Below are positions 6,208-55,804 of a stretch of 64,000 nucleotides of DNA, piece after piece. A model generated the notes under the pieces. The model worked only from the letters and a program-made list of their open reading frames with translations. It did not search any database and was not told the DNA's origin. How positions within the stretch are numbered: position 1 is the first letter of the stretch; the number at the start of each line of letters is the position of its first letter. The position numbers and the translations under genes were made by a program. The DNA lies in IMG/VR virus record IMGVR_UViG_3300034175_000063, positions 1-64,000 of that record. The stretch is one strand, 5' to 3'. This DNA comes from a virus.

Positions 6208-6570
6208 ATGGCCAAGAAAAAGCCAGAAGAAAAGAAGCCGTGGAGCCTCACGCAAGAGGAGATCGCGTCGATCACCAACGAGGAATTTATCCGCGGAACA
6301 TCGCGGCTGCTGCCTCCGGTCGACGAGATCCCCAAAGCGTTCTGGGACGGCAACGTGTACACCAGGATCGTTGAGGCCATGTACGTCGGCGCCAAGCCGG
6401 AGCATGCCCAGATTGACTTCCTTCCTGGCTTCGTCAACGACGGCACATCGCTGGCACGGGTCACCATGGCCCATGTCCGTGATATGCAGGCCGACTACGA
6501 CCACCGCATCGCGGGTGTCGGCTACATGATCTCCAAGATCGTTCACGTCACAATCATCATCAACAAGTAA
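6208..6570 (+). CDS. Hypothetical protein
   Basis: Start MAKKKPEEK 7 nt after the upstream stop. Confidence 0.65.
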   Translation: MAKKKPEEKKPWSLTQEEIASITNEEFIRGTSRLLPPVDEIPKAFWDGNVYTRIVEAMYVGAKPEHAQIDFLPGFVNDGTSLARVTMAHVRDMQADYDHRIAGVGYMISKIVHVTIIINK

Positions 6571-6956: not shown

Positions 6957-7246
6957 GCATCGAAGACATCCCTGAGCGTCGCAAGACCCCAGACGAGAAC
7001 GCACGCGCACTCGTCGGCATTCGTGCAGCGATCACCAACTACTACCTGGACCTGGACGCTCGCAAACACGGCAGCGTTGCAATGGACCTGGCCTTCAGCA
7101 AGATCGAGCGTATCCTCGGCATGAGCTGGGAAGACCACAAAGAAACCGTGCGTGAAGTCACGCAGCTGGCGCCGAACAAAGCCATGGAACTGCACAATAT
7201 GTTTCAGGACACCCTGATGACCACTGCCTACCGTGGAGCGAAATAG
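6953..7246 (+). CDS. Hypothetical protein
   Basis: ATGA overlap with the HNH gene; SD GAGGA. Confidence 0.65.
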   Translation: MSIEDIPERRKTPDENARALVGIRAAITNYYLDLDARKHGSVAMDLAFSKIERILGMSWEDHKETVREVTQLAPNKAMELHNMFQDTLMTTAYRGAK

Positions 7247-16644: not shown

Positions 16645-19113
16645 ATGCAAGTTGCACACCAACAGGACCACATCACCCACGCTGTTATCGGAGGCGCGGC
16701 AACCATCGACTTCGGTATCAGCAGCAGCGCCGAGTTCTTCAACATCCTGTCCAGCACGCTGTACAAGGACCAGATCCTCGCCGTGGTGCGTGAAGTCCTG
16801 TGCAACGCATGGGATGCCCACATCGAAGCCGGCATCATCGACCGTGCGGTCGAGATCACCCTGCTCGAAGACAAGTTCACCATCCGTGACTTCGGCACCG
16901 GTATTCACCGCAATGACATGGGCCAGATCTACGGCACCTATGGCAACAGCACGAAGAAGAACGACGGTCAGCAGACGGGCGGCTTCGGCCTCGGCTGCAA
17001 AGCACCGTTCGCCTACACCGACCACTTCGAGGTGATCTCCCACCACGACGGCGTACGCACGATCTACAACCTGAGCAAGTCGTCGGCCGCCGCCCGCGGC
17101 AAGCCGGGCATCGTCCCGATCGCTTCGTTCCCAACGACGGAATCGGGCCTGCAGGTGTCGATCGACATCCACAACGCCACCGACTTCAAACGCTTCCAGC
17201 GTCTCGTGCGTCGTATCGCTCGCAATGGCGACATGAACATGAAGGTGAACGGCGATCAGATCAGCAAGCTCGGCTTCGACACCGTTGAATCGAACTACCT
17301 GATCACGCTGGACCAGCAGCAAGAAATCATGGACGCCGATGGCCAACGTATCATGGTCCGCTACGGCAATGTGATCTACCCGGTTGACCGGGCCGGCTCC
17401 ATTTCTCTTGGCTTCGACCAGGTGGTCGGTCACCTCGACAAGCTGAAGGTCGGCCACAGCCGTTCGTACTCGATCATCTTCCAGGCACCGCCGCACTCCA
17501 TCTCGGTCACCCCGAGCCGGGAATCGCTGTCGATGCAAGAGCACACCGTTGCAACGCTGAACGGTTTGTTTGCTGGCTTCATGGAAGAGGTCAATGGTGG
17601 CTTCGTTCCGGCCTGTCACGCCTACGCGGAAATGGCAGTAAAGATGGCCGTGGCCCAAACCATGCGCAAAGATCTGCTGTCGCGCGAATGTAAGCTGCCG
17701 TACGTCATGGACAAAAGCACGCCGAACAAGATCAGTGATTTGGTGACCATGGCACGTCGCTACATGGAGTCGAACTACCCAAGTGGTTTGGCCTTCCGCA
17801 AGAAGGACATCACCTGGCGCCTCGAAGGCATGGCCGCGTCTGGCCAGCTGGACCGTGGCATGGTGCAGACCTTCATGCGTGAGCTGGCCAACGTGACGAC
17901 GACGAAGAACTGCGACGAGTGGGACTTCCCGAAAGAGCAGCGGACCATGTGGCTGCAGCGGCACGTCATCGCCCCGATCATCAACAAGATGGGCAAGGCT
18001 GGCATCGACTACACCCGGCTGTACGTTCTCGACAAAGAGGACACGCGGGTGCCGGACAACTACTACTACAAGGACAAGGAGCCAATCGCTTTGGCCACTG
18101 ACGCTCGGCCAATGCATTTGTTCAACACGCTGCCGTACATGCGCAAGATCGTGGTGGTCAGCACCTCGGCGAAGGGTATCCATGATCGCGCCAAGCGGCA
18201 TGATGTGCTCAAGACCCTGGGCACCGAGCATGGCTACCTGTTCTTCAAAGCCAGCATGAAAAAGAAGGAGCGTGAAACGGAGCTCGCCTTCTTCAAGGCA
18301 CTCGGCATGGTCGTGGTCGACCTCACATTCCGTCAGGAGTGGGAAGCTTCACCATCGCGCTCGAGCGGTCCCCGCAAACCAGCAAGGAAAGGATTGCCGT
18401 CACTGAAAGCGATGAAGCTGAGCGATGGCTCGGTCGACACGCAGCAGGTTAAGCAGGACACCGTTCTGCGTATCGTTAATCCGGAATTCTCGGTGTGCGT
18501 GTCACTGCGCAAAGAGAACCCCTCCAGCATGCTGGGCCGGTTCGATGGCAAGTGCACGTCGCACATCATTGACTTATGGGGCGACAAAGGCGTCATCATC
18601 AACAACTCAACGTTGCATGAGAAGGCCATCAAGGCCGGCGCCATGGAGCTCGAAGCCTATGTGGAAAAGAAGGTCGTTGAAGTCATGCTCAACAGCCCAC
18701 GGATCCTCGAATACTGGGCTTTTGATCGTCAACGTGCGTGTGACCACTTCACGGTTTATAGCGATGAGGCGGCCGAGATGATCAAGGTCGTCTACAACAG
18801 TGAGCTGCTGCGCAACCAGTTCCAGCTGGTGAACAACCTCACCGACGACGAGAAGAAGATCATCCCGTTGTACCGTACGTTGCAGCAGCTGCAGCGTTAT
18901 GGCCTGTCGGCCGAAATGAAGGCGGTTGAAAAACTGCTGGCCGACGTGCCGATTGATCCTCTCAACGGTGTGCTCATCGAGAAGTTCCGGCACCCTAATC
19001 CGCTGCTTGCGGTGTTTGATAAAAAAGCCCTTACCCGCATGCTGCGCAAGGCTAGTCCTACCAGCCCACAAATCATAAAGATGACCCAGATCCTGGCCAT
19101 CGCCCTTAACTAA
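16645..19113 (+). CDS. rIIA: rIIA-like protein (N-terminal GHKL/HATPase domain)
   Basis: LYKDQILAVVREVLCNAWDAH, IRDFGTGI, YGNSTK, GGFGLGCKAPFAYTD; precedes the rIIB-like gene. Confidence 0.9.
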   Translation: MQVAHQQDHITHAVIGGAATIDFGISSSAEFFNILSSTLYKDQILAVVREVLCNAWDAHIEAGIIDRAVEITLLEDKFTIRDFGTGIHRNDMGQIYGTYGNSTKKNDGQQTGGFGLGCKAPFAYTDHFEVISHHDGVRTIYNLSKSSAAARGKPGIVPIASFPTTESGLQVSIDIHNATDFKRFQRLVRRIARNGDMNMKVNGDQISKLGFDTVESNYLITLDQQQEIMDADGQRIMVRYGNVIYPVDRAGSISLGFDQVVGHLDKLKVGHSRSYSIIFQAPPHSISVTPSRESLSMQEHTVATLNGLFAGFMEEVNGGFVPACHAYAEMAVKMAVAQTMRKDLLSRECKLPYVMDKSTPNKISDLVTMARRYMESNYPSGLAFRKKDITWRLEGMAASGQLDRGMVQTFMRELANVTTTKNCDEWDFPKEQRTMWLQRHVIAPIINKMGKAGIDYTRLYVLDKEDTRVPDNYYYKDKEPIALATDARPMHLFNTLPYMRKIVVVSTSAKGIHDRAKRHDVLKTLGTEHGYLFFKASMKKKERETELAFFKALGMVVVDLTFRQEWEASPSRSSGPRKPARKGLPSLKAMKLSDGSVDTQQVKQDTVLRIVNPEFSVCVSLRKENPSSMLGRFDGKCTSHIIDLWGDKGVIINNSTLHEKAIKAGAMELEAYVEKKVVEVMLNSPRILEYWAFDRQRACDHFTVYSDEAAEMIKVVYNSELLRNQFQLVNNLTDDEKKIIPLYRTLQQLQRYGLSAEMKAVEKLLADVPIDPLNGVLIEKFRHPNPLLAVFDKKALTRMLRKASPTSPQIIKMTQILAIALN

Positions 19114-44384: not shown

Positions 44385-44561
44385 ATGAATGTCCTCAAGT
44401 GGTTTGGCTGCGTCATTGCAGCCATCCTCTTGGTGGCAATCGTGATTGGCGTATATGCGTTCATCCACATCATCATCGCGGTCGTGACCGTGGTGTTCCT
44501 GGTGTGGATGGCTGCCATCGGCATTCGCGCTTACTTCAAGAGCCGACCGCGTAAAATGTAA
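44385..44561 (+). CDS. Small membrane protein (58 aa, not in ORF track)
   Basis: MNVLKWFGCVIAAILLVAIVIGVYAFIHIIIAVVTVVFLVWMAAIGIRAYFKSRPRKM. Confidence 0.7.
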   Translation: MNVLKWFGCVIAAILLVAIVIGVYAFIHIIIAVVTVVFLVWMAAIGIRAYFKSRPRKM

Positions 44562-44565
44562 TTCG

Positions 44566-45310
44566 CTGCCCACCACCCAGATAGGCTGGGGGCAGATTCA
44601 ACAGGATGGGGCACATCTACCTTCAAAAGACCGAAGGGCACGGGCGGGAACCCATTGTGGCGTGCTCCACCCTGTTGATGCAGGTCTTGTTAGTCGGCTG
44701 GACGACAATCCGTCCGTGAGTTCTTGTAACCTGGTGTGAAGCCGGGGAACAGCCACTTCACCTACGAGGTTCTGATCTGAAACGCTTGTGACCCCTGATA
44801 CGGGCATGGTTTAGCGCATCCATAAAACAGAGCATCAACACGTTAAGCAGCCCCGCGTCAGTGGGCAGCACCAACACCCGAGCGCCGGGACGGAGTAGGC
44901 CAGGAAATTTGTGGCCGAAACGTAGTCCCGCTACCTGTAGTCAAGGCAGGTCGCTCCGGTGTTGGAGATGGTGTAAGGCGCAAGCTGGCTGCGATGAAAG
45001 ACCTGGGCTATTCCCCAGCGTGAAATAAGCACGTCCAGAGGACCGGGTTCGATTCCCGGTATTCAACTAGAGGTATGCGGTTCGAGTCCGCTCGCTGGCC
45101 GAGATTAGGTAAATGCCATAGGGGTTCGAGTCCCCTTGCCCGGTAGCTTTATGCTTTACGGGACACGGGTGGGAGGCGGCTTGTAGTAGAATCACCGAGC
45201 AGCGGACAAGTCCAGTCCATCGTGAGGGTAGGCCAGCTGGCATCCCAAGCAATAGCGTAAACAAGACCGTGGGGAGGGTGCAACATAGTTCCACGTTAAG
45301 CTACAGTGCA
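44566..45310 (+). ncRNA. Candidate large structured ncRNA (possibly GOLLD-like) with three tRNA-type T-arms
   Basis: No credible ORF over ~790 nt; long stems 44598-44614/44662-44678 and 44871-44884/44952-44965; three G-TTCGANT-C hairpins; AGTA/GAA motif; ends at a terminator. Confidence 0.7.
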
Positions 45311-45315
45311 TCATT

Positions 45316-45352
45316 AAAGCCCCGGTCCTCCTCACAGAGTCCGGGGCTTTTC
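45316..45352. terminator. Likely bidirectional terminator between the ncRNA region and vRNAP
   Basis: AAAGCCCCGG...CCGGGGCTTT inverted repeat with A- and T-rich ends. Confidence 0.8.
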
Positions 45353-45355
45353 TCA

Positions 45356-48300
45356 TTACTGCCCGTTGTACACCGCCGTGGTGAATGGTCCGGTCAGCAG
45401 GCCCACCGTGGTCACCGAATCCAACGAGCCGAAGTAGCTCAGCGCGCCGGCGTTAAACGGATTGCCGAAGTGGTGGATGAAGCTCGAGTCCATCACCGTC
45501 GGCTGGTCCCCCAACATGTGCTCGGCCGCCATCAAGGCGAGTACCCGGCCAGGCGAGTCCTTATAAATACGTGCAAGCACCTTCTGGATGCGAACATAGT
45601 ATTTCGAGAACATGATCAACCCCGTGTCATTAGCGTACTGGATTTTCCGGTGCGTCGGGACGTCGTAGTTGATGAACGCTTCGGAAGCGCGCTGCACAGC
45701 TTGCTCATGGGTCATCGACTTGACGTCATGCTGGTACAGCGTGTACCGGGCCAGGAAGTCACTGATCTGCGTTGCGTAGCTCATCATCTTGTATGGCGCC
45801 GTGCTGTGGTGCATGGTGAGCAGCTGCACGCCTTTCAGGATGTGTGGGTTCACACCTTCGATGAAGCCGTCGACCTTTTCGTCGAACCGCGACTTGTACG
45901 AGTAGATGTCCTCATCGACGCCCACATCCTCAACGATGGTCGGCATCAGGCCGGCGTCGATCAGCGGACGGATCGGGTTGCGGGCCAGGCTGTCTTCCAA
46001 GCGTTGGATCAGGTAGGCGGCTTTGCTCGCATTCATGCCAGGTTCAAAGTGACCGATCGTCTGCTGGTGCTTCAAGGCGAACAGCTTGGCATTGTCCTGC
46101 TTGTATTCCCAGGCCGACTTGAACGCCACACGATGGCTGTCGAAGATCTGCTTCGGCGACACGCCCATCAAGAAAAGCTGCGACCAGTTCGACCGCAGGT
46201 TGCCCGTCATGGTCGACCACGATTTGACCACCAGGTTGGCCTTCGTCTCCTTGACGATCGCCTGCCAGATGTCTTCGGACTGGCGAGCACGCAGCTGGGC
46301 CTTGTCCTTGAAGGCATAGCTCATGATCTCGACGAACATGTTTTCGACGAAGCTGCGCTGTGCCTTTTCCTTTTCAAACACCGTGCCGATGCTGAGCTTG
46401 CGATAGCCGAAGTTCATGTCGAGGATGTCGTTGCGGACCAGCATGCCATCCTTGCCGAACAGGCTCTTGGCCAGCTGCTGGGTATCCCGCGGCAGCATGT
46501 CCCAGATTTCACGCAGCTGCGGATCAGCCGACGTCGGGCCGACCTGCAGATAGGCTTCCGGATGATCGGCAAAGTCCAGCTTGTACTGTTCGTGCAGAGC
46601 CTTGATGGCGTTGGCGTTCTGCACTTTCGACGCTACCTTGTCGAACGTGTTGCCGGCCATCGAGCCCAGCAGGTGATCGGTACGGTTGTCCCGGTTCAGC
46701 AGCTTGTCCTTGACGACGTTGCTCATCATGTAGCGGTAGTTGGTCACGTCACCGTTCGGGTTTAGCACTGGTGCCATGTGGGCTTCCTTGACCGCTGTTG
46801 GATCGAAGCCAGTACCAGTGAACATGCTTTGAATGGCCGGACGCTTACCGATCCGGATCGCTGCCATGTTCATCGCGTTCTGCTGGCCAGCCACCGATAC
46901 AGGGTGAGCACCGGTGATGACCTGGCTACCCTTGGCTTTGGAATCGGTCGTGCTGATGATGCCCGAGTTCCATTGTTTCAGGCCGCCGTCACGCAGCGAG
47001 TAGATCCGCTTTTGGTCAGATACCGGGTCCGCTGCGTCGCGCGGCAGGTAGCCGGGCATTGCCGTGTAACCTTTCTTGACCAGCTCGATACCCTCATCAT
47101 CGGTGGCCATCACCACCGTCATGTAGGGATCGTAAATCTCCGGGACGTAGCCTTTCATCTGCAGGGCTTCACTGTCCGAGAACAACTTGTCCTTGCTCTC
47201 GGCCTGCAATGCCGTGTGGGTCTTCATGATCATCTCGATGCCATGGCCACCGTCGGTGCGTGCTGCTTCAGCGGCAAACACCTCGGACAACATCTTCATG
47301 TCGACCCGGCTGGCGTACTTCAGCGCGTAGAGCGAAGCCAGACGATCAATGATCGGGGCGGCAGCCAGAGCCTGGGCCGGCGTGACACTCATGCCCGTGC
47401 CATACAGGCGGGCGATGTTCCCGGCGTTCATCAGCTGGTGGGCCGTGGCCACGCGGCTGGTGGCCATGAAGTAGCCCAGCCCTTTCGCCGAGTTGATGTA
47501 GAACCGGTTCATCTTGCCACCGGCAACGAGCTGAGCTTCATGCGAGTCGATCTCCGTCTGCAGGTCACTCGTGCTGTTGACCAGGTTCTGCAGCTGGGCC
47601 ACCGTGTAGGTGCCGAGCAGGGACTGCATGTCACCACGCAGGACCACCGCGGTGAGTGCTTTCTTCTGGTCGTCGGTCAGATCCTCACCTGCATTGACGA
47701 AGGATCCCGATACCGCTTTCGAGATGTTCGAGATGGTGTCCTTGCGGATACCCTCCAAGTGCTTGGTGCCACGCAGCAGGAAGTGGTAGACCTTGTTCAT
47801 GTCGGTTGCACCGCGTACTTCGTTCATCAGCGATGCTGCAACGCCGAGCTGGCCGGTCATCGTCTTGTCGCGCAAGCGAAGGTAGGCATCCATGATGGCG
47901 TCGACGCGATCGCCGGCAACCGCCGACATGACATTGCCACCCAGCTTCACGAAGGCGTTACCGCTGTTCTGGAAGAAGGGCTTCTTGCCGAAGGCTTCCA
48001 CCGCCGCGCGCACCGAGTCGCTCATGTCTTCGGCCGTGTCGGCGATGCGGTTCAGCGTCTGCGAGGCGCCGGACGTGATCCGGTTGTGACGCTTGGCTTC
48101 GATCTCGACCATCTGCTTGACCAGGGCGTTCAGCTTCTTGTCAGCCATCTGGCCGCGGAAGGTCTTCGTCAGGCGGCCGGCCACCCAGCTCATGATCGTG
48201 TTGAAGATCTTGTTGAGCCGTTCGTTGAAACCCATGCTTGGATTGTTCGTGGCGCCGGTGGCAGTGTGAAACTGCAGTTGCTCGCGGAAGCCAGAATGCA

Positions 48301-51300
48301 CCAGGCCCAGGGCGGCAAAGCGGCTCATGTAATCGGACTTGCCGGTGGCATCCTGCTTGATGGCGAAGACGAAATCGTAGAGTGCCTTGGCCTGATCCTT
48401 TTCGATCTGGGTGGCCGTGGTCCAGTCGCCCTTGTGGAAGGATTCGACCGTCAGCTTGGCCCGGACCTCGTTGTAGAGGCGGGTCATTTCCTTGTAGGCG
48501 ACCGTCATCACACCGTCGTTGTGCGACAGTGCAGTGCGCATCGTGGCTTCTACCTGCTCCAGGACGAAAGCTTCCTGATCGGTGAAACCGAAACCAGCAG
48601 CCAGAGACTCGGATGCGAACGGGGCCACGCCGGTGCTCAGTGCATCAGCGTAGACATCCAGCGGATCCTGTGCGGTCTGCTCCATGAGAGCGGCCTTGAA
48701 GGAACCGAAGGGACCATACACCGACTTCACCAGCGTTGACAACAGCCCTTGCAGGTGCGTGCTGTGTTCAGCCGAGATCTGGGCGCCGTTGTTCGACTGG
48801 GCCAGCGCAGCGTAGATGTCCAGGGTCGACAGGTCACGCACGTTTGCGGCGCCAGGCGTCGAGATGGCCAGGGTTACCGGGCCGGCTGCTGCCGGTTTGT
48901 TTTGCTGCGCTGCCTGCTCGAACAAGCCAGACACATTCGACAAGAACGTGGTCATACCGCTGCTCATTGCAGCGTTGGGACGACCGAAGAACAGAGCTGT
49001 AATCTTGTCGATAAATGCGGCCATTGCCGTGATCAGGCGGTTGCCACCGGTCTTCGACGTGTAGCTGATGGCGGCCATTACATCGTTCTGGAACTCAGCG
49101 TTGGTCATGCCGTAGGCAATGAACTCGTCCAGGTTCTCAAAGACACGGGAGTAATACGCGATGCGGTCTGGCGACTCGCTGCTGGCCACGTATTGCTTGG
49201 CCATTTCCATCAACGCTTCGAGCTCTTCGACCAGCTTCAGTGCATCACTGGTATAGGGCTTGGCCGGCTTCTCTCCTTCGTTGTTAATGATCTCACCATC
49301 GCGGATCGCCTGCTCAGCGCGCGTCGTCTGCACCAATGCAGCGTGCACCATCTCGTGCAGCAGTACCTCGTTGTCGAGGCCCGAGTACACAAAGTCGTCG
49401 GACATCACGTAGATGGCTTGGTTTTCAATGCCGTCAGCTACGTTTATATACATGCCGCGGGCATTCTGGCTGATCTCGTGGTGGATCAGGTCAGCCGGTA
49501 CGGTGTCCTTGGTGATGTATTTCACCACCATGTTGCCGGCGACAGTGCGCTCCAGCTGTGACAGCAGCTTCATGCTAAAGTCGTCCTTCATGGTCTTGCG
49601 CAGCAGGGCCACCACTTCCTTGACGGTTTGATTCGGCTTGGCCTTAAATGCTGCGGTTAGCTTAGGATCATAACGGCCGAGAGGCTTGCCCAGTTGAGCA
49701 ACTGGGTTGGCGTTCACCGGCTTGGTTTCCATCTCCGGGTCGGCTTTCGCTGCTCCCTTTTTCTCTTTGGCCGGGCGGCTGGCCATCTCAGCCTTGATCG
49801 CTGCTTCCAGCTTATCTGACACCGAGGTGAGGGCCGAGCGGTCGACGTCTGAAACACCGACCTCAAGCGCCGAGCGCAGCGAGGCCGCCGAGGAACGGTG
49901 GGAAGACTCGACAGCGAAGGCACCACCCTCCATCGCATATTGATTCACCGCCGTCATGGTCGACATCGTGTCCAGCTTCATGCTGTCGGCACGATAGGCC
50001 ATGCTCTGGGCCAGCTCAGCCTGCAGGTACAGCACGCCTTCAGGTGGGACATCGTGCTTCTCAGCGAAGGTCACCAGCGACTTGGCCAGCTTGGCCATGG
50101 TCGCATCCGATACCTTGCCGGCCGCCAGCATAGCATTCAGTCCACGCACCGTGCGCAGCAGAGCGTTCTTCACCTCGTTCGCCGGCGAGTAGTTCAGCAT
50201 GGTGTCCCAGGTCGCTTCGTTCATGCGACGTGCTGTCTCAACGATGCCGCCGACACCGTGACCCTGTGCATCGTGGATGTTGAGGGCTTGGCCATCGACG
50301 TTCGCACGCACCGAGATAGCCGAGTCGGCCGAGTGCATCGACACTGGGACCATGGCCACACCTGGGCCGGCTGGCGTTGTCTCATAGCCGTGCACCTGGG
50401 TGCTCTTGCTACCATCTTCAAATGGCTGGCCGAACTTCACCACATTCTGGTAGGTGTCCTTGTCCGAGAGCTTGCGCTCGGCTTTGGCCACCATGATGCC
50501 TGCCTCCAGGTCTTTCGATTCTTGGGACATCGGCGTGTTCATCACCGGCAGCAGGGCGGCCGTCTGCTTGCGCAGTTCAACTTCCTGAGCGTTGGTGAGA
50601 TCGTGGATCGGCACACCGGTCTTCGGATTCACTGCCATCTTGCCGTCGGCGACCAGCTGCGTGATCATCTCTTCGCGCATGCCCTGGTACACAGCGTTGT
50701 AGACTTCAAACGTCAGCTGTGCTGTCTTGTTGAACTCGGTACGTTGGGCGATGAAGACCTCGAAGTCCTGCTTCATGGTTTCTTCCACGGCCACGCCGAG
50801 CGAGTCCTTGAAGGCGCCCTTGAGTGTCTTGATCTGCTGGCTGGTGAACTCGTGTTCCATCAGGTCGATGTTGGTCGGCAGCCGCACACCCATCACCTCC
50901 AGGTGCAGCAGGATTTCGCCTGGTGTCATCTCGCCTTCTTCAATCGCCGTGTAGATCGAGTCGACGAAGTTGTCGGCCATCGAGTCCACTGCGTTGTTCA
51001 CCGACGAACCGAAGACCATCGCGGTCAGCGGGGTCTTGATGATGTTCCGGCCTGCCTTTTGCACGACGCCTTTGCTGTCGGCCAGCTCGCCAGTGAAGGC
51101 GTAGATCGAAGCCATGAGCTCAGGATCCAGGTTGGCAGCATTGATCGCCTGCGTCATGTGCAGGGCCGTGTTCTCGTACAGATCGAAGTTCTCCGGCGCG
51201 TCGCGCCAGGTGTTGTATTCGATATGGTCGTTGCCTTGCTCGAAGAAGCCACCGCGGTTCAGTAGGGCGTACATCTCCTTGACCGTGTTGGCCGCGCCCA

Positions 51301-54300
51301 GCAGCAGATGCGACAGCATCGGGCCGTTGGTCACACCGTCCACCTCGGCCATCATCTGCGTGGTGAACTCGGTGGCGCCGGCCTTCTTGGCCACTGTCAT
51401 CTGGGCCATGGCCATCAGCGCATCAAGCGAGTGCATGTCCTCACCACCAGCCTTCACGCCGGCCACCAGCACTGCCTGATCGTTCTCGGACAGCACACCG
51501 CTTTCGGTGCCGGTCAGCGACTTAACGAGCACGGCCACGGCTGCTTTGATCTCTGGCTTGGCGACCAGCTTGTTGAAGTCGGCGAGGGCTTTTTCCTTGC
51601 TCTTCTTGTCGGTCTTGACGCCCAGTCCTTCTGCAACGCGCAGCTTGAAATTCGTCATGGCTGCGGTATCGCCGAAGGCAATCTTCGTTTCCCAGGCCGA
51701 ACGGTACAGCATGTGACGGTGGATCTTGCTGGTCTGTGGATTGATCATGTTCGTGGCGATACCGACACGCTGCTGCATCCAGACAGAGTGTTCAAAGTAC
51801 ATGGCCGCGTCACTACCGACTTCACCGACGTAGTTCATGAACCGCTCGAGCTCGCGTGCCAGGCCATCATTCTTGGCCTGCAGGGACTTGCGGCGGCTCT
51901 TGTGCACGACCTTGTTCGGGTCTTCCTGACCTGCGATCTGCAGCATGGTGTCCGGGGACACCTGGCCGGCCAGGTTGAACATGTCGGCCCGGACATAGCT
52001 CGCCTCGGCGTCATCACGACGCACCTGCTCAGCCAGCTCCGAAGGGATGGCCATGCTGGTGTTGCGGGTGGTCTTCTGCTTCGATTCCACCGGTGACGAC
52101 GACGGCGCCTTCAGTGCCGGCTCCACGCCGAACAGCTTGTCGAGGATCCCGTTCGTTCCCTTGTTGGCTTGGAAAATCGCTTCGGCCTGCTCACCGAGTT
52201 TGCCATCGGCACGGGCCAGCTTCAGGAAGTAGAACTTCGCATTGGTCTGGGTTTTGTCGCTCTTCGTCAGTTCAGCCATTTCCTGGCCGGTGATCGTGTT
52301 GCGGGTCAGGATACCCTGGTCCAGCAGCAGCTTCATGGCATGGGCACCGATCGACGCTTCCAGATCGGCCTGCAGGTTACGCGGAGCGGAAGCCAAGGAT
52401 TTAAGACCAAGGGCCGCAACAATCCGCTGGCCGAGTGCATTGGCCACGATGTTCTGACGTACGCCGATGTGCTCCAGTGCGTTGTATTCAAGCGTCGACA
52501 CCGGTGCAGATTCATCCCGACCGAGGATGGCATTGATGTCTTCCTTGGTGTTGAGCTCCGGACGTGTGGCCGCTTCAGCGACCCAGCTAAATGCACCGTA
52601 GGCGATTGCCGTCATGGTGTTCTCATCGAGCTTGCCGTCGGCGTTCATCAGGAACTGGATCGGGTCTTCAAAACCGTAGCCGGGATTGCCCTTCCGCAGG
52701 TTGGCCGTGATGTTACCGGCCCATGCCGTGGCCGTGGCCAGGAAGGTTTTCAGTACCAGCTTTTGCTCATCGCTTGGGGCTTCCTTCGACGACAGGAATT
52801 CCGACAGCTTGAAGCCTTCGGCCTTGTTCTTCCATGCCGAGAGGAAGTCGACCAGCTTAGCCAGCGGACGCTGGGTGCCGGTGTCTTCATTGCCGGCCGA
52901 CTGGACGAAGTGTGCCCCGACCAGGTTCTGTTCCTGGTATGGCAGCGAGGTGTCATGTGCGACGTCGAAGACGGTGAGCGTGGTGGTCTTTTCCTTGACC
53001 TCCTGGGTCGCCGCAGCTTCAGGCGTGGCCGTCTCTGCAGCGGGCGCTGGGTTCGCTTCGCTCACCGCTGGCTGCTCGACTGCTGCCGCCTTCGCTGCTG
53101 CTTCCCGTGCCTCACGTTGGGCTTTGGATTTGGCCAGGTTGTCAGCGACACGCTGGTCCTTGTCGTTGCCGGCCAGGACGTTTTTCTTCGGCTCGGCCGA
53201 TGCCTCATTATTTGCATCTGGTGCAGATTTCTTGCGTGACTCGATCACGTAGCCCGACTTGTCGGCTTTGCGTGTGGCCTTCAGGCTCTCACCCAGGAAG
53301 TTGTCGTATAGATACTTCTCCGCTTCCAGCGACGTGGCGAATTCCTTGCCGACGTGGACGACTTTTTCTTTCTTCTCAGACTTAGGGGGAGCTTCAGCGG
53401 TGGGGAGTTCAGCTGGTACAGCTGGACGTGCGGTGTCCTCCTCAATTTCTGGGGTACTGATATTACCGGAGGGTACATTGTCTTGCTTGGAGGATTCGGA
53501 TTGTACGCCAAATTTCAAAGATGTGGCGGAATTCATTTCGGTATGGGTGGCACGCAACGCTTTCGCCTCGTTGGCGATCTCGTTGACCAGGCGCCCGGAG
53601 TTCAGGGCCAGGCCGCCGTTGGCACGGAGATCCTTTTCCTTGAAGGTGCCAGGCGGGTGGGATTCCCATTTCTTGTCCGTCTTGTTGTAGACGATCTGGG
53701 CGCCCATACCGTAGTCGGCCATGGCCTCGCGGGCGGTGGCTGCCTTGTCTTCGTGGTTGATGGCGAACGTCTCCAGCCCGGTCATGGCACGGTCGGCCGA
53801 CACCTGGCTGTTCGAGGCGATCGCTGCTGCGATGCGCGAGCGGTATTGCGAGATGCCGACGTTCTTGGCAGAGCCAAACAACACCTCTTGCGACACCTTC
53901 GACTGGGTAGACAGGGCGTTCTCGGCCTGACGAGCATCGCTGAACACGCGAAGATGCGCACGCTGCGAATCCGTCAGCGAGTTGGTGGTGTCATCAGCCA
54001 GCTGCAACGCTGCTGTGTGGGACAGAGCATCCGGCTGCGACATCGACAGGTTCACCAGTCGGGTAGCAGCGGTGTTGTCGGCCGCTGCTGCGGTGACCAG
54101 CGTGCCTACTTCTTCCGGCGTGGCCACTGCCTCATTGGCGTTGACCAGTCCACCCATGAAGTTGCGGCCGGCTGAGAGCTGGCGATCCAGAGCGGACAGC
54201 ACAGCACGCGACTTGCTCGCTGCCTGGGTGTCGGTGGCGTCAGCCAGCACATCCTTCCAGCCGTCGCGGAAGTCCTGCAGTTCGGCGATCTTGACCGCAT

Positions 54301-55726
54301 CGGTAGTCTTGGCGATCTCCGTCTCGTAGAAGCTGACCTTGGCTTTCGCCTCGGCGACGCTGGCCGGCGAGAAAGTATCGGCATCGTTCTGTGCCTTGGC
54401 ATGCTGTTCTTCGATCTGGGACAGCAGCTCGCCGGCGCGCTTCAGGTTCTCGGCTTTGATTTCCGGGGTCGTTTCCGGACGCATGGCGTGGGCAACCAGC
54501 ACACCCATGCCGCGGGAGAGGTCGTAGTCACGGCTCTTCGGATCCACGAAGCTGGTAATGTCGTTGCTGGCCACTGCAGCAGCGACCCGTTGACGAGTCT
54601 CAGCAGTGGTCACACGCTCTTGAGTTTCCTTGGCCACGGTGTTCGCGCTCTTGTGCAGCGAACCCATGCCGACGCCCATGGCAGTACCTGCCACCAGGCC
54701 GGCGCCTGCGGCATTGCCGACGCCCTTCATGTAATCTTCCTCGCCCATGGCGATGTTCGTGAAGAACTGCTCCTGTGCCGACTGCGGGAGCTCTTCGGTC
54801 ACGCCTTCAGAGAAGCCTTCCTTCCCGATCTTGGCCAGCTTCGAGCCCTTCAGCGTACGTGCACCGGTGGCGATGTCGGTTGCTGCATCACCGAACACTT
54901 TGTTCGAGACAGCACCGATGGCGGCGGTGGTAGCACCAGCGGCCAAGGCCGGCAGAGCATAGTCCTCGTATTCACGGCCAGCGGCCTGTGCCTTATCAGC
55001 GACCGTACCAGCTGCTTGAGCACCTTCAACACCTGCACCAATGGCCGACAGGCGGAAACCAGCAGCCTCAATAGCTGCCTTTGCAGCGGCGCCACCGGCT
55101 TCAGTGCTCAGGGCAGCCGTTTCGGCCATGCCTACACGGCCGGCTGCGATCGCAGCTTCACTGGCCAGACGTCCTTCGACGGTTGCCATGGCGGCCTTGG
55201 CCGCGATACCACGCGCGGCAGCACCGGCCACACCCATACCGGCCAGCATGGCAGGCAGGGATTCGGTCACGGTGCCCAGGATCGAGCGAGGATTGGCCAG
55301 CGAGGTCAGCACGGTGTCGCTGAAGCCTTCGGCTTCGGCTACCTTCTGATCGGAAGCTTTCTGTGCAGCACTCAGGTGTTCACCCAACGCTTCGTTGGTG
55401 GCAGCTGGATCGTAGCCGATGGCACGCATACCCTCGCCGACGGCACCACCAGTGGCCAAACTACCCAGGCCAACCACCGAAGCACCCAGGTTCACCACAC
55501 CTTGACCCAGCTTGATGCCGACGTCACCGACCGTACCCACCAGGTCAGTTTGACGAACTTCCGGGTTGGCGTTACGCAGCATCCGCTCTTTGAGCGAAGT
55601 CTGGTACACCGAGTCCAGTGCAGCCATCTTGGTCTGACGGGCAGCAGTAATCTCGGCCATCTTCTGGTCGAGCAGTTCTTCGCTGGCTTTAGGCGCAGAT
55701 GGGCTGGTGTAGACTGGATTGGTCAT
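45356..55726 (-). CDS. Virion-encapsidated RNA polymerase (N4 gp50-like)
   Basis: ~3,456 aa, no Cys seen on manual reading; NPQTSK.HR, motif A EVDGVTNGP, motif B RNIIKTPLTAMVFGS, motif C NIHDA. Confidence 0.95.
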   Translation of the reverse strand: MTNPVYTSPSAPKASEELLDQKMAEITAARQTKMAALDSVYQTSLKERMLRNANPEVRQTDLVGTVGDVGIKLGQGVVNLGASVVGLGSLATGGAVGEGMRAIGYDPAATNEALGEHLSAAQKASDQKVAEAEGFSDTVLTSLANPRSILGTVTESLPAMLAGMGVAGAAARGIAAKAAMATVEGRLASEAAIAAGRVGMAETAALSTEAGGAAAKAAIEAAGFRLSAIGAGVEGAQAAGTVADKAQAAGREYEDYALPALAAGATTAAIGAVSNKVFGDAATDIATGARTLKGSKLAKIGKEGFSEGVTEELPQSAQEQFFTNIAMGEEDYMKGVGNAAGAGLVAGTAMGVGMGSLHKSANTVAKETQERVTTAETRQRVAAAVASNDITSFVDPKSRDYDLSRGMGVLVAHAMRPETTPEIKAENLKRAGELLSQIEEQHAKAQNDADTFSPASVAEAKAKVSFYETEIAKTTDAVKIAELQDFRDGWKDVLADATDTQAASKSRAVLSALDRQLSAGRNFMGGLVNANEAVATPEEVGTLVTAAAADNTAATRLVNLSMSQPDALSHTAALQLADDTTNSLTDSQRAHLRVFSDARQAENALSTQSKVSQEVLFGSAKNVGISQYRSRIAAAIASNSQVSADRAMTGLETFAINHEDKAATAREAMADYGMGAQIVYNKTDKKWESHPPGTFKEKDLRANGGLALNSGRLVNEIANEAKALRATHTEMNSATSLKFGVQSESSKQDNVPSGNISTPEIEEDTARPAVPAELPTAEAPPKSEKKEKVVHVGKEFATSLEAEKYLYDNFLGESLKATRKADKSGYVIESRKKSAPDANNEASAEPKKNVLAGNDKDQRVADNLAKSKAQREAREAAAKAAAVEQPAVSEANPAPAAETATPEAAATQEVKEKTTTLTVFDVAHDTSLPYQEQNLVGAHFVQSAGNEDTGTQRPLAKLVDFLSAWKNKAEGFKLSEFLSSKEAPSDEQKLVLKTFLATATAWAGNITANLRKGNPGYGFEDPIQFLMNADGKLDENTMTAIAYGAFSWVAEAATRPELNTKEDINAILGRDESAPVSTLEYNALEHIGVRQNIVANALGQRIVAALGLKSLASAPRNLQADLEASIGAHAMKLLLDQGILTRNTITGQEMAELTKSDKTQTNAKFYFLKLARADGKLGEQAEAIFQANKGTNGILDKLFGVEPALKAPSSSPVESKQKTTRNTSMAIPSELAEQVRRDDAEASYVRADMFNLAGQVSPDTMLQIAGQEDPNKVVHKSRRKSLQAKNDGLARELERFMNYVGEVGSDAAMYFEHSVWMQQRVGIATNMINPQTSKIHRHMLYRSAWETKIAFGDTAAMTNFKLRVAEGLGVKTDKKSKEKALADFNKLVAKPEIKAAVAVLVKSLTGTESGVLSENDQAVLVAGVKAGGEDMHSLDALMAMAQMTVAKKAGATEFTTQMMAEVDGVTNGPMLSHLLLGAANTVKEMYALLNRGGFFEQGNDHIEYNTWRDAPENFDLYENTALHMTQAINAANLDPELMASIYAFTGELADSKGVVQKAGRNIIKTPLTAMVFGSSVNNAVDSMADNFVDSIYTAIEEGEMTPGEILLHLEVMGVRLPTNIDLMEHEFTSQQIKTLKGAFKDSLGVAVEETMKQDFEVFIAQRTEFNKTAQLTFEVYNAVYQGMREEMITQLVADGKMAVNPKTGVPIHDLTNAQEVELRKQTAALLPVMNTPMSQESKDLEAGIMVAKAERKLSDKDTYQNVVKFGQPFEDGSKSTQVHGYETTPAGPGVAMVPVSMHSADSAISVRANVDGQALNIHDAQGHGVGGIVETARRMNEATWDTMLNYSPANEVKNALLRTVRGLNAMLAAGKVSDATMAKLAKSLVTFAEKHDVPPEGVLYLQAELAQSMAYRADSMKLDTMSTMTAVNQYAMEGGAFAVESSHRSSAASLRSALEVGVSDVDRSALTSVSDKLEAAIKAEMASRPAKEKKGAAKADPEMETKPVNANPVAQLGKPLGRYDPKLTAAFKAKPNQTVKEVVALLRKTMKDDFSMKLLSQLERTVAGNMVVKYITKDTVPADLIHHEISQNARGMYINVADGIENQAIYVMSDDFVYSGLDNEVLLHEMVHAALVQTTRAEQAIRDGEIINNEGEKPAKPYTSDALKLVEELEALMEMAKQYVASSESPDRIAYYSRVFENLDEFIAYGMTNAEFQNDVMAAISYTSKTGGNRLITAMAAFIDKITALFFGRPNAAMSSGMTTFLSNVSGLFEQAAQQNKPAAAGPVTLAISTPGAANVRDLSTLDIYAALAQSNNGAQISAEHSTHLQGLLSTLVKSVYGPFGSFKAALMEQTAQDPLDVYADALSTGVAPFASESLAAGFGFTDQEAFVLEQVEATMRTALSHNDGVMTVAYKEMTRLYNEVRAKLTVESFHKGDWTTATQIEKDQAKALYDFVFAIKQDATGKSDYMSRFAALGLVHSGFREQLQFHTATGATNNPSMGFNERLNKIFNTIMSWVAGRLTKTFRGQMADKKLNALVKQMVEIEAKRHNRITSGASQTLNRIADTAEDMSDSVRAAVEAFGKKPFFQNSGNAFVKLGGNVMSAVAGDRVDAIMDAYLRLRDKTMTGQLGVAASLMNEVRGATDMNKVYHFLLRGTKHLEGIRKDTISNISKAVSGSFVNAGEDLTDDQKKALTAVVLRGDMQSLLGTYTVAQLQNLVNSTSDLQTEIDSHEAQLVAGGKMNRFYINSAKGLGYFMATSRVATAHQLMNAGNIARLYGTGMSVTPAQALAAAPIIDRLASLYALKYASRVDMKMLSEVFAAEAARTDGGHGIEMIMKTHTALQAESKDKLFSDSEALQMKGYVPEIYDPYMTVVMATDDEGIELVKKGYTAMPGYLPRDAADPVSDQKRIYSLRDGGLKQWNSGIISTTDSKAKGSQVITGAHPVSVAGQQNAMNMAAIRIGKRPAIQSMFTGTGFDPTAVKEAHMAPVLNPNGDVTNYRYMMSNVVKDKLLNRDNRTDHLLGSMAGNTFDKVASKVQNANAIKALHEQYKLDFADHPEAYLQVGPTSADPQLREIWDMLPRDTQQLAKSLFGKDGMLVRNDILDMNFGYRKLSIGTVFEKEKAQRSFVENMFVEIMSYAFKDKAQLRARQSEDIWQAIVKETKANLVVKSWSTMTGNLRSNWSQLFLMGVSPKQIFDSHRVAFKSAWEYKQDNAKLFALKHQQTIGHFEPGMNASKAAYLIQRLEDSLARNPIRPLIDAGLMPTIVEDVGVDEDIYSYKSRFDEKVDGFIEGVNPHILKGVQLLTMHHSTAPYKMMSYATQISDFLARYTLYQHDVKSMTHEQAVQRASEAFINYDVPTHRKIQYANDTGLIMFSKYYVRIQKVLARIYKDSPGRVLALMAAEHMLGDQPTVMDSSFIHHFGNPFNAGALSYFGSLDSVTTVGLLTGPFTTAVYNGQ

Positions 55727-55804
55727 GGTATTCCTGGTTGATTCGGGTGAGAGCCCATTATATACAAGTTGCACTGGGTCAAGTAGTCTTGACCCAGATT
55801 TACT

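What the first reader, a model, noticed from the sequence alone, without database searches (positions are those of the whole stretch)
45042..45136. Three tandem tRNA T-arms without tRNA bodies
Seen: ACCGGG-TTCGATT-CCCGGT (45042-45060), GCGG-TTCGAGT-CCGC (45077-45091) and AGGGG-TTCGAGT-CCCCT (45120-45136). Each is a canonical 7-nt TTCGANT loop closed by G-C, and they start only about 35-45 nt apart. That is too close for full cloverleaves, and no CCA ends are present. Inference: tRNA-elbow mimicry (a decoy for tRNA-targeting nucleases or modification enzymes, or T-loop tertiary contacts within the large RNA), or remnants of a decayed tRNA cluster.
Basis: partly seen in the sequence, partly recalled or inferred. 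Interest (0 to 1): 0.75.

Follow-up and report, generated by a model that had tools for sequence, protein, structure and literature searches.

The report
Phage RNA with two tRNA T-arms
Two of the three flagged hairpins belong to a conserved, uncatalogued ~110-base phage RNA that copies the "elbow" of a tRNA twice without being a tRNA. The third hairpin is the tail of a separate, misshapen tRNA-like piece next to it, and what these RNAs do is unknown.

Summary
GGTTCGANTCC occurs three times in the 64-kb window, all within 45042-45136 (0.09 expected). The whole 77.6-kb N4-like phage genome has no canonical tRNA and no Rfam match.

T-arms 2 and 3 are not debris. They are the two T-arms of a ~110-nt structured RNA module (45071-45182). 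Its parts, in order:
- T-arm A
- a CTCGCTNNCCGAGATT core
- a D-loop-like GGTAAA bulge
- T-arm B
- a variable hairpin
- two long-range helices, P1 and P2

About 44 distinct copies exist in unrelated phages, including cultured Rosemountvirus and Cellulophaga phages. All four helices covary (93% paired, 13 of 19 pairs compensatory, 0 of 500 shuffles). Copies often sit exactly between tRNA genes.

T-arm 1 belongs to a neighbouring cassette (44961-45068). That cassette has a canonical tRNA 3' half but an aberrant middle, and I found no relatives.

The 794-nt gap is a mosaic of exchangeable RNA cassettes rather than one demonstrated large RNA.

Function is untested. I favour a processed, non-decoding mimic of the tRNA elbow that binds a tRNA-recognising factor.

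Earlier follow-ups of this scan already reported this family on other DNA (Rosemountvirus-type genomes). This is its first record in an N4-like phage.

The parts
44562..45355 (+). 794-nt non-coding gap between the last + strand replication-module gene (ends 44561) and the stop of the 3472-aa virion RNA polymerase gene (45356, - strand). It is a mosaic of RNA cassettes.
   Evidence: ORF list. PHROG and Pfam annotation of the neighbours. Mosaic homology to L002, L003 and metagenome contigs.
44684..44863 (+). Cassette X, shared with relative L003
   Evidence: 80% identity over 184 nt to L003 6844-7027
44863..44972 (+). Cassette Y, a strongly folded unit shared with L003 but lying in a different order there
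   Evidence: 75% identity to L003 6379-6488. MFE -50.1 kcal/mol, z = -3.84, 0 of 200 shuffles fold as well.
44961..45068 (+). tRNA-shaped cassette that holds T-arm 1. It has an acceptor-type pairing GTTGGAG/ATTCAAC, a tiny D-like hairpin, an aberrant long middle arm, a 4-nt variable loop, T-arm 1, a 3' acceptor strand and no CCA.
   Evidence: ARAGORN with the intron option calls 'tRNA-Arg(gcg)' with a 19-nt intron. ARAGORN default and Rfam tRNA find nothing. The 3' half matches the layout of 30 true tRNAs. Its 5' strand overlaps the closing helix of cassette Y.
45042..45060 (+). T-arm 1 (6-bp stem, TTCGATT loop)
45071..45182 (+). Double-T-arm module, a member of the conserved phage RNA family modelled as R1
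   Evidence: cmsearch 57 bits, E 5.6e-10, the only hit in the genome. Family covariation.
45077..45091 (+).
   Evidence: The stem covaries (GC, CG, AU and UA at the inner pairs).
45096..45100 (+). P1 5' strand (TGGCC) inside the invariant core CTCGCTNNCCGAGATT
   Evidence: The NN positions covary with the distal GGNN
45101..45114 (+). D-loop-like single strand GAGATTAGGTAAAT with the conserved GG and AAA
   Evidence: G40 and A42-44 are invariant in alignment A2 although they were not part of the search pattern
45115..45117 (+). P2 5' strand (GCC). It is only 3 bp in this copy, against 5 bp in most members.
45120..45136 (+).
   Evidence: GTTCRANTC is invariant in 16 of 16 aligned members and was not in the pattern. 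4 of 5 stem pairs are compensatory.
45139..45162 (+). Variable hairpin V (CCCG...CGGG), longer here than in most members
45163..45174 (+). Junction strand ACACGGGTGGGA, the counterpart of the family consensus ACNGGTGCAA and the second conserved GG
   Evidence: G90 invariant in A2
45175..45182 (+). P2 3' strand (GGC, 45175-45177) and P1 3' strand (GGCTT, 45178-45182; 4 pairs, one of them G-U)
   Evidence: The same TGGCC/GGCT(A/T) pairing occurs in L095 and L123.
45181..45189 (+). TTGTAGTAG, a word that recurs at cassette junctions
   Evidence: Seen at the module's 3' border here, after cassette Y in L003, and just upstream of the module in wastewater contigs (loose ends)
45181..45317 (+). Cassette Z, shared with L002 and with wastewater contigs
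   Evidence: 91.5% identity to L002 7318-7494. Contigs X4 and X5 cover 45075-45310 and 45075-45266.
45319..45351 (.). Terminator-type hairpin (GCCCCGG/CCGGGGC) flanked by an A-run and a T-run, shared by the convergent transcription units
   Evidence: Read directly. Conserved with changes in L002 and L003.

Best explanation
Shown: the three hairpins belong to two different RNA cassettes in the 'tRNA slot' of an N4-like phage that has no true tRNA.

Shown: T-arms 2 and 3 are T-arm A and T-arm B of one ~110-nt structured RNA (45071-45182, + strand). It belongs to a conserved, uncatalogued phage family. The architecture, 5' to 3', is:
- a short AAUG-type leader
- T-arm A
- the core CUCGCUNNCCGAGAUU, whose NNCC forms helix P1 with a distal GGNN
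- a 13-14-nt D-loop-like bulge (..GGUAAA)
- helix P2
- T-arm B
- a variable hairpin
- a second GG strand (ACNGGUGCAA)
- the 3' strands of P2 and P1
- then a U-run, the next tRNA or the next cassette

Shown in part: T-arm 1 is the T-arm of a separate, adjacent tRNA-derived cassette with an aberrant middle.

Inferred: the module is transcribed with the upstream genes. Host tRNA-processing enzymes cut it out, as they cut out the tRNAs it abuts elsewhere. Each T-loop docks on one of the two GG strands, giving two tRNA-type elbows on a P1-P2 stack. The RNA does not decode. It acts by occupying a protein or RNA that recognises the tRNA elbow or T-loop: a tRNA-cleaving defence nuclease, a processing enzyme or a modification enzyme.
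For: Family and fold:
- The pattern TTCRANTCNNCTCGCTNNCCGAGATT finds 20 IMG/VR contigs, 33 metagenome contigs and one phage contig inside a MAG among 185,579 species genomes. That is about 44 distinct copies.
- On a MAFFT alignment of 16 members, the 4-helix model gives 92.7% paired cells. 13 of 19 pairs have compensatory changes, 0 of 500 shuffles reach the observed values, and slid controls give 36-46% paired.
- On 43 distinct model-aligned rows the figures are 93.5% paired and 14 of 19 compensatory.
- Parts that were not in the search pattern are invariant: T-loop B (GTTCRANTC), GG/AAA in the bulge, and the G of the second GG strand.
- Divergent copies change even the CC/GG of P1 in step. 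Cellulophaga phage phi13:2 has UUAUU/GAUAG, and the N4-like L072 has TTGTC/GACA.

The window copy:
- It scores 57 bits, E 5.6e-10, and is the only hit in the genome.
- The N4-like relative L003 has a copy in the same gap (67 bits). L072, L009 and L017 have divergent copies in the same slot.
- A wastewater contig (X5) shows no difference over 45075-45179 but 9 differences over the next ~70 nt. In a second contig (X4) all 10 differences that the tool lists lie at or after 45220; the table counts 12 in all, so two are unplaced. Upstream of 45075 these contigs carry different sequence.

tRNA context:
- In 8 members a canonical tRNA (Met, Gln, Phe, Leu or Ala) ends exactly 4 nt before T-arm A.
- In 3 members a tRNA starts 97-102 nt after it.
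- In phi13:2 the module directly follows the annotated tRNA-Cys.

Strand: the T-loops and the G-U pairs fit only the + strand.

Precedents:
- YrlA RNAs carry tRNA-type modifications and are substrates of tRNA enzymes (PMC4201824).
- A prokaryotic Schlafen defence nuclease cleaves tRNAs mainly at the UUC of the T-loop (PMC13462974).
- T5 makes stable tRNA-like RNAs in its tRNA region, and T5 RNA2 also has two TTCGAxT hairpins.
Against: - There is no expression, processing or binding evidence for any member.
- The window copy is a weak member. P2 has 3 bp and P1 has 4 bp with one G-U. The family fold reaches -31.8 kcal/mol, against -40.7 for an alternative fold that disrupts T-arm A, and z is about 0. 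The covariance model chose another, mismatched 3' partner.
- The CTCG/CGAG words are invariant, so the rival local hairpin cannot be tested.
- The T-loop to GG docking is inferred by analogy, not shown.
- Some members of the second subfamily replace T-arm B with an ACAG-loop hairpin, so two elbows are not universal.
- Relatedness among sequences inflates the shuffle statistics.
- T-arm 1's cassette has no relatives, so it cannot be told whether it is functional or decaying.
Confidence: 0.6

Rival explanations
1. All three hairpins are remnants of a decayed tRNA gene cluster and have no function of their own.
For: The closest relative, L002, carries an intact tRNA-Tyr and a tRNA-like gene with an encoded CCA in the same gap. 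T-arm 1 sits in a canonical tRNA 3' half whose anticodon arm is wrecked. T-arm 1's cassette has no detectable relatives.
Against: T-arms 2 and 3, with their flanks, are conserved with compensatory changes in about 44 copies from unrelated phages. They show no difference in a wastewater relative whose neighbouring sequence has diverged by about 13%. Pseudogene debris would not keep P1 and P2 covarying.
Confidence: 0.1
2. The T-loops are tertiary-contact modules inside one ~640-790-nt ornate RNA that spans the whole gap.
For: The gap is the only long ORF-free stretch and is dense in helices. First-stage notes e1-6099261 and e1-6099274 propose long-range end pairing. T5 has a 719-nt stable RNA (RNAX) beside a tRNA.
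Against: The module stands alone between tRNAs in other phages. The gap is mosaic. X and Y are shared only with L003 and lie in another order there, Z is shared only with L002, and wastewater relatives join the module to other upstream sequence through a TTGTAGTAG linker. The module's own closing helices are local.
Confidence: 0.1
3. The module is a cis-acting processing, stability or termination element that punctuates the 3' end of the upstream operon. It would work like tRNA punctuation, with no role in trans.
For: It abuts tRNAs at fixed distances. In many compact members a U-run follows the P1 3' strand directly. In the window it lies in the 3' untranslated region of the + strand genes.
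Against: Simple punctuation would not need two T-loops, two GG strands and an invariant 16-nt core kept across distant phages. In the window and in Rosemountviruses more structured RNA follows it, not a transcript end.
Confidence: 0.15
4. The module is a Y RNA of the YrlA type that tethers a Ro60/Rsr protein.
For: The order T-arm, then helix, then D-like GG strand is the permuted order described for YrlA (PMC4201824). The 5' strand CUGACCGAG loosely recalls the Ro-binding GGUCCGA. Many compact copies end in a U-run.
Against: There is no Rfam YrlA hit even in E-value mode. The GNCGAAN0-1G motif is absent. The phage genome has no TROVE/Ro60 gene. T-arm A lies outside the closing helix, unlike in YrlA.
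Confidence: 0.05
5. The module is a chargeable tRNA-like or tmRNA-like RNA that enters translation.
For: A stemless D-loop-like strand next to a helix resembles the tRNA-like domain of tmRNA (my knowledge of tmRNA, not tested here).
Against: No acceptor stem adjoins either T-arm, there is no CCA and no anticodon arm. ARAGORN's tmRNA search is empty and Rfam gives only a 17-nt T-arm hit. The short ATG frame in the module is not kept in the second subfamily.
Confidence: 0.02

Closest known systems
Phage T5 tRNA-like stable RNAs (RNA1, RNA2, RNA3; record AY543070, annotated 'tRNA-like stable RNA with unknown functions')
   Same: They are small, non-decoding RNAs encoded among phage tRNA genes. 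T5 RNA2 (125 nt) also carries two TTCGAxT hairpins. Their function is unknown too.
   Different: In T5 RNA2 both T-arms lie inside a terminal acceptor-type stem, next to a D-arm. In this module T-arm A lies outside the closing helix P1 and there is no acceptor stem. Model R1 scores T5 RNA2 at only 10.7 bits, E 0.6, so it is not the same family.
YrlA, the bacterial and mycobacteriophage Y RNA with a tRNA-like domain (Rfam RF02553; PMC4201824)
   Same: It mimics the tRNA elbow with T and D elements in the permuted order T, stem, D. It does not decode. Some copies are phage-encoded.
   Different: No Ro-binding GNCGAAN0-1G motif, no rsr/TROVE gene nearby and no hit to the Rfam model. The module has two T-arms and stemless GG strands instead of a D stem-loop.
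Canonical tRNA (Rfam RF00005)
   Same: T-arms with G53, U54, U55, C56, R57, A58 and C61. GG-containing D-type loops. The same genomic slot and spacing as tRNA genes.
   Different: No acceptor stem, anticodon arm or CCA. It is not detected by ARAGORN or by the Rfam tRNA model.
tRNA-like domain of tmRNA
   Same: A helix followed by a stemless D-loop-like strand and then a second helix, plus a T-arm (resemblance from my knowledge of tmRNA).
   Different: The T-arm is not placed between P2 and P1, and there is no acceptor end or tag frame. tmRNA searches are negative.

Membership tests
Double-T-arm phage RNA family (model R1, built here; uncatalogued) | T-arm A directly followed by the core CTCGCTNNCCGAGATT and ..GG(T)AAA | tested here: met
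   Window 45077-45114 matches
Double-T-arm phage RNA family (model R1, built here; uncatalogued) | Long-range helix P1 between NNCC of the core and a distal GGNN | tested here: met
   GGCC 45097-45100 pairs with GGCT 45178-45181, one pair being G-U. L095 and L123 show the same variant. The covariance model picked another, poorer partner.
Double-T-arm phage RNA family (model R1, built here; uncatalogued) | Helix P2 (about 5 bp) next to P1 on the 3' strand | tested here: inconclusive
   Only GCC/GGC (3 bp) can form in the window copy
Double-T-arm phage RNA family (model R1, built here; uncatalogued) | Second T-arm (B) inside P2, followed by a variable hairpin and an ACNGG strand | tested here: met
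   45120-45136, 45139-45162 and 45163-45174
Double-T-arm phage RNA family (model R1, built here; uncatalogued) | Significant score to the family covariance model | tested here: met
   57 bits, E 5.6e-10. The window was not in the seed alignment.
tRNA | Cloverleaf with acceptor stem, D-arm, 7-nt anticodon loop and T-arm | tested here: not met
   ARAGORN default finds 0 genes in the window and the genome. There is no Rfam tRNA hit at E <= 10. Only the permissive intron mode forces 44961-45068 into a frame.
YrlA (RF02553) | Match to the Rfam covariance model | tested here: not met
   No hit in the window gap (E <= 10) or in 8 family loci (E <= 1)
YrlA (RF02553) | Encoded within about 4 kb of a Ro60/TROVE gene on the same strand (PMC4201824) | tested here: not met
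   No TROVE match in the 77.6-kb genome, while the controls rang in Deinococcus and Bacteroides
YrlA (RF02553) | GNCGAAN0-1G motif near the 5' end | tested here: not met
   The core reads GACCGAGAUU or GGCCGAGAUU
tmRNA | Acceptor stem with CCA end, T-arm next to the 3' acceptor strand, tag reading frame | tested here: not met
   ARAGORN -m finds nothing. Rfam gives only a 17-nt T-arm match of 9.9 bits.
T5 RNA2-type tRNA-like stable RNA | Terminal acceptor-type stem enclosing a D-arm and both T-arms | tested here: not met
   Read. R1 scores T5 RNA2 at 10.7 bits, E 0.6.
T5 RNA2-type tRNA-like stable RNA | Accumulates as a stable RNA in infected cells | not testable with these tools
   No RNA data were available for any carrier

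The most novel reading that the evidence does not exclude
The double-T-arm module is a dedicated RNA anti-defence decoy. Phages that carry it present two exposed T-loops (UUC) on a non-essential RNA. These soak up or mis-trigger host immune nucleases or sensors that recognise the tRNA T-loop or elbow, such as Schlafen-type T-loop cutters. The neighbouring slot swaps such RNA cassettes between phages the way protein anti-defence islands swap genes.
Probability: 0.15. Interest if true: 0.85.

Novelty: new variant of a known kind. Interest (0 to 1): 0.62.

Why it matters
Phage tRNA regions have long been known to hold stable RNAs of unknown function, such as those of T5, and none of them has a mechanism. 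This family has a defined, covariation-backed architecture that repeats the tRNA elbow. It is absent from Rfam and sits unannotated in more than 50 cultured Salmonella and E. coli phages (Rosemountvirus), in a Cellulophaga phage, and now in an N4-like soil phage that has no tRNA at all. It can therefore be tested directly in laboratory hosts. tRNA cleavage is now a recognised bacterial immune strategy and includes nucleases that cut the T-loop. A non-decoding RNA built from T-arms is an obvious candidate for a phage counter-measure or for hijacking tRNA-handling enzymes. The cassette-like exchange of such RNAs in one genomic slot also hints at an RNA counterpart of anti-defence gene islands.

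Tried and rejected
- Rfam: no family at gathering thresholds in the window or in L002, L003 and L078. E-value mode gave only chance hits and a bare T-arm match.
- ARAGORN with default settings and its tmRNA mode found nothing. Relaxed modes produce many overlapping, contradictory calls, which I did not trust beyond showing that T-arm 1 sits in a tRNA-shaped frame.
- Thermodynamics: the T-arm 1 cassette, the module and cassette Z fold no better than shuffles (z -0.61, -0.01, +0.22). This says nothing either way for T-loop-rich RNAs.
- BLAST of the whole gap against cultured phages gave only a 43-nt hit. That hit turned out to be the family core.
- Relatives of T-arm 1's cassette: none by blastn against all fetched loci. 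The pattern CCAGAGGNNNGGGTTCRANTCCC found only ordinary tRNAs. The pattern GATGAAAG..GTGAAATAAG found only chance matches in coding DNA.
- Loosening CTCG/CGAG in the pattern returned the same 20 contigs. The rival local hairpin CTCG-loop-CGAG therefore has no variation and cannot be tested.
- An alternative P1 partner, AGGCCAG at 45231-45237, was rejected. It lies inside cassette Z, which L002 shares without the module, and relatives with TGGCC use GGCT(A/T) at the family position.
- A short reading frame starting at the conserved ATG of the leader was rejected. There is no ATG in the CACGCAG subfamily and the stops vary.
- Ro60: no TROVE gene in the genome.
- Sequencing runs: no RNA holder listed. 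The runs laid were contigs only, so they give no information on transcript ends or expression.
- Literature searches for a description of this RNA found none (YrlA, tRNA-like and phage, T5 stable RNA, Rosemountvirus and tRNA, tRNA mimic and defence). The held library is incomplete.
Full report
**Setting**

The window is 64 kb of a 77,648-bp IMG/VR virus record with direct terminal repeats. These genes mark it as an N4-like phage:
- a 3472-aa ORF (45356-55774, - strand) of the size of an N4-type virion RNA polymerase
- a phrog_2135 primase
- a Sak4-like annealing protein
- an N4-type SSB
- a RuvC-like resolvase

Its proteins are under 60% identical to those of cultured phages. The finding lies in the only long ORF-free stretch, 44562-45355. 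This gap sits between the last + strand gene and the stop of the polymerase gene and ends in a terminator-type hairpin.

**The observation**

The three hairpins are exactly as described. GGTTCGANTCC occurs three times in the window, all in this 95-nt stretch. Shuffles give 0.09 and none of 100 reaches three. No other T-arm-type hairpin and no canonical tRNA exists anywhere in the genome. Rfam has no match.

**What T-arms 2 and 3 are**

A BLAST search of the gap against cultured phages gave one short hit: 43 nt at 93% identity in unrelated E. coli and Salmonella phages. It covers T-arm 2 and the sequence after it, with a compensatory change in the stem (GCGG/CCGC against GCAG/CTGC).

A pattern built on this core found 20 IMG/VR contigs, 33 metagenome contigs, and just one contig among 185,579 prokaryotic species genomes. 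That one is a phage contig binned in a MAG. Together they give about 44 distinct copies.

Laid side by side, they share one architecture:
- a leader (G/T)AAUG
- T-arm A (4 bp, loop UUCRANU)
- the core CUCGCUNNCCGAGAUU
- ..GG(U)AAA
- a 5-bp helix strand (P2 5')
- (N)GUG
- T-arm B
- a variable hairpin
- ACNGGUGCAA
- the P2 3' strand
- a GGNN(A) strand that pairs with NNCC of the core (P1)

The evidence for the fold is as follows.
- P1 covaries: GA/UC, UA/UA, AA/UU, UG/CA, CA/UG and GG/CU.
- On a plain MAFFT alignment of 16 members, the four helices give 92.7% paired cells. 13 of 19 pairs have changes on both sides and 0 of 500 shuffles reach any measure. Sliding the partners drops pairing to 36-46%.
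- A covariance model (R1) aligned 45 matches, with 93.5% paired and 14 of 19 compensatory. That alignment leans towards the model.
- Features not imposed by the search pattern are invariant: the whole T-loop B consensus, GG/AAA of the bulge, and the G of the second GG strand.
- Divergent members found only by the model change the otherwise constant CC/GG of P1 in step.

**The window copy**

R1 was built without the window. It scores 45071-45168 at 57 bits (E 5.6e-10), the only hit in the genome.

I place the 3' strands a little further on than the model did. P2 is GCC 45115-45117 with GGC 45175-45177. P1 is GGCC 45097-45100 with GGCT 45178-45181. Two other members with TGGCC use the same GGCT(A/T) partner.

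This copy is a weak one. It has a short P2 and a long variable hairpin, and the nearest-neighbour MFE prefers a different fold (-40.7 against -31.8 kcal/mol).

Natural variation argues that it is nevertheless kept. A wastewater contig (X5) carries 45075-45179 without a single difference, yet it differs at 9 positions in the ~70 nt that follow. In a second contig (X4) all 10 differences that the tool lists lie at or after 45220; its table counts 12, so two are unplaced. Both contigs have unrelated sequence upstream of 45075.

**Genomic context of the family**

- In eight members a canonical tRNA of five different isotypes ends exactly 4 nt before T-arm A.
- In three members a tRNA begins 97-102 nt after it. 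There the module fills precisely one 'tRNA-sized' slot in an array.
- In Cellulophaga phage phi13:2 it follows the annotated tRNA-Cys directly.
- In about 56 cultured Salmonella and Escherichia phages (Rosemountvirus and close relatives) it lies, mostly unannotated, in a ~490-nt non-coding gap.
- Among 76 N4-like loci fetched through the RuvC gene, L003 has a strong copy in the same gap. L072, L009 and L017 have a divergent copy in the same slot. The closest relative, L002, has a tRNA-Tyr and a tRNA-like gene with an encoded CCA there instead.

**T-arm 1**

T-arm 1 is not part of the module. One wastewater relative (X4) lacks it. Another (X5) seems to have a variant of its 3' acceptor strand.

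Its surroundings read CCAG-AGGA-[CCGGG TTCGATT CCCGG]-TATTCAA-C. This is the ordinary layout of anticodon-stem 3' strand, variable loop, T-arm, acceptor 3' strand and discriminator. The same pattern retrieved 30 true tRNAs of many isotypes.

Upstream, however, the would-be anticodon stem CTGG/CCAG encloses about 43 nt instead of a 7-nt loop. The D-like hairpin has a 3-nt loop. The acceptor 5' strand (44961-44967) overlaps the closing helix of the strongly folded cassette Y.

Default ARAGORN and the Rfam tRNA model reject it. Only the intron mode calls a 'tRNA-Arg' with a 19-nt intron. I found no relatives. It is therefore a tRNA-derived cassette, either decaying or rebuilt, and I cannot tell which. 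Its position mirrors the tRNA or tRNA-like element that precedes the module in most family members.

**One large RNA or an array?**

The gap is a mosaic.
- Cassettes X (44684-44863) and Y (44863-44972) are shared only with L003 and lie in the opposite order there.
- Cassette Z (45181-45317) is shared with L002 and the wastewater contigs.
- The module is shared with L003 and many unrelated phages.
- The word TTGTAGTAG recurs at cassette borders.

This favours a row of exchangeable RNA cassettes in the slot where related phages keep tRNAs. It does not favour one ornate RNA that needs the T-loops for its own tertiary fold. I did not test the long-range pairings proposed in the first-stage notes.

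**Mechanism**

Shown: a conserved, strand-specific RNA secondary structure with two canonical T-loops and two conserved GG strands, and placement at tRNA spacing.

Inferred:
1. Host tRNA-processing enzymes excise it.
2. Each T-loop docks on a GG strand as G18/G19 dock on U55/C56 in tRNA. This gives two elbows on a P1-P2 stack.
3. It acts in trans by binding something that reads the tRNA elbow or T-loop.

Three precedents make this reasonable.
- YrlA RNAs are modified and processed like tRNA (PMC4201824).
- T5 accumulates tRNA-like stable RNAs, one of which has two T-arms.
- A published prokaryotic Schlafen defence nuclease cuts tRNAs mainly at the T-loop UUC and binds two stem-loops at once (PMC13462974).

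None of this is evidence about this RNA. I put about 0.85 on the identity claims and about 0.4 on the trans-acting mimic step.

**Comparison with known families**

It is not a tRNA, a tmRNA or a YrlA. Defining features of each were tested and not met. It is not the T5 RNA2 family either. It belongs to the same broad kind as the T5 tRNA-like stable RNAs and YrlA, namely non-decoding tRNA mimics, but with its own architecture. T-arm A lies outside the closing helix, the D-type strands have no stems, and there is no acceptor stem.

**Earlier notes of this scan**

Sequence look-up shows that several earlier follow-ups reported this same family on Rosemountvirus-type genomes, also as an uncatalogued two-T-arm RNA found in phage tRNA arrays. 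Other notes describe different 'double-elbow' phage RNAs. I reached the family independently from the window. One note gave me the lead to T5 RNA2, which I then checked. What is new here is the family's presence in an N4-like phage that lacks tRNAs, the P1/P2 model with covariation counts, and the separation of T-arm 1 from the module.

Noticed in passing
window 44863-44972: Cassette Y is a very stable three-way-junction fold (-50.1 kcal/mol, z -3.84, 0 of 200 shuffles). It is shared with relative L003 at 75% identity, where it lies upstream rather than downstream of cassette X. It looks like a separate structured RNA of unknown kind.
   Followed up: partly
window 45181-45189; L003 about 6484-6494; loose ends of run X4: The word (A)TTGTAGTAG recurs at borders between RNA cassettes. 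It could be a processing site or a recombination joint for cassette exchange. It also occurs once on the - strand at 18063.
   Followed up: partly
window 45181-45317: Cassette Z between the module and the terminator is 91.5% identical to L002 7318-7494 and is present in wastewater contigs with about 13% divergence. There is no Rfam match and its fold is no better than shuffles.
   Followed up: partly
L002 7200-7308 and 6658-6747: The closest relative carries in the same gap a tRNA-like gene with an encoded CCA, a class-II-type D-arm and a long, non-canonical anticodon arm, which ARAGORN did not call. It also carries a tRNA-Tyr that ARAGORN calls but that gave no Rfam gathering-level tRNA hit. 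A 68-aa ORF (6983-7189) lies between them.
   Followed up: no
L171 (phage T5, AY543070 40848-41566): T5 is annotated with a 719-nt 'stable RNA with unknown functions' (RNAX) directly beside tRNA-Arg, plus seven smaller stable RNAs in its tRNA region. This is a cultured precedent for long non-coding stretches in phage tRNA slots.
   Followed up: no
L078 1399-1524 (fHy-Eco03 gp59) and other Rosemountvirus records: Some records annotate a short 'hypothetical protein' ORF across the module core. Most annotate nothing. These ORF calls are probably spurious.
   Followed up: no
L088, L100, L113, L120, L130 (metagenome and IMG/VR contigs): A second subfamily starts with CACGCAG. Its P1 3' strand is followed by a conserved TGACAG-CCGGAAAGACGG hairpin. 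Some members replace T-arm B with an ACAG-loop hairpin and are followed by a class-II-type tRNA 5' part.
   Followed up: partly
window 44385-44561: The last + strand ORF before the gap encodes 58 aa with a hydrophobic, membrane-like sequence (weak LysE hit, E 0.005). L002 and L003 have a similar small ORF at the same place.
   Followed up: no
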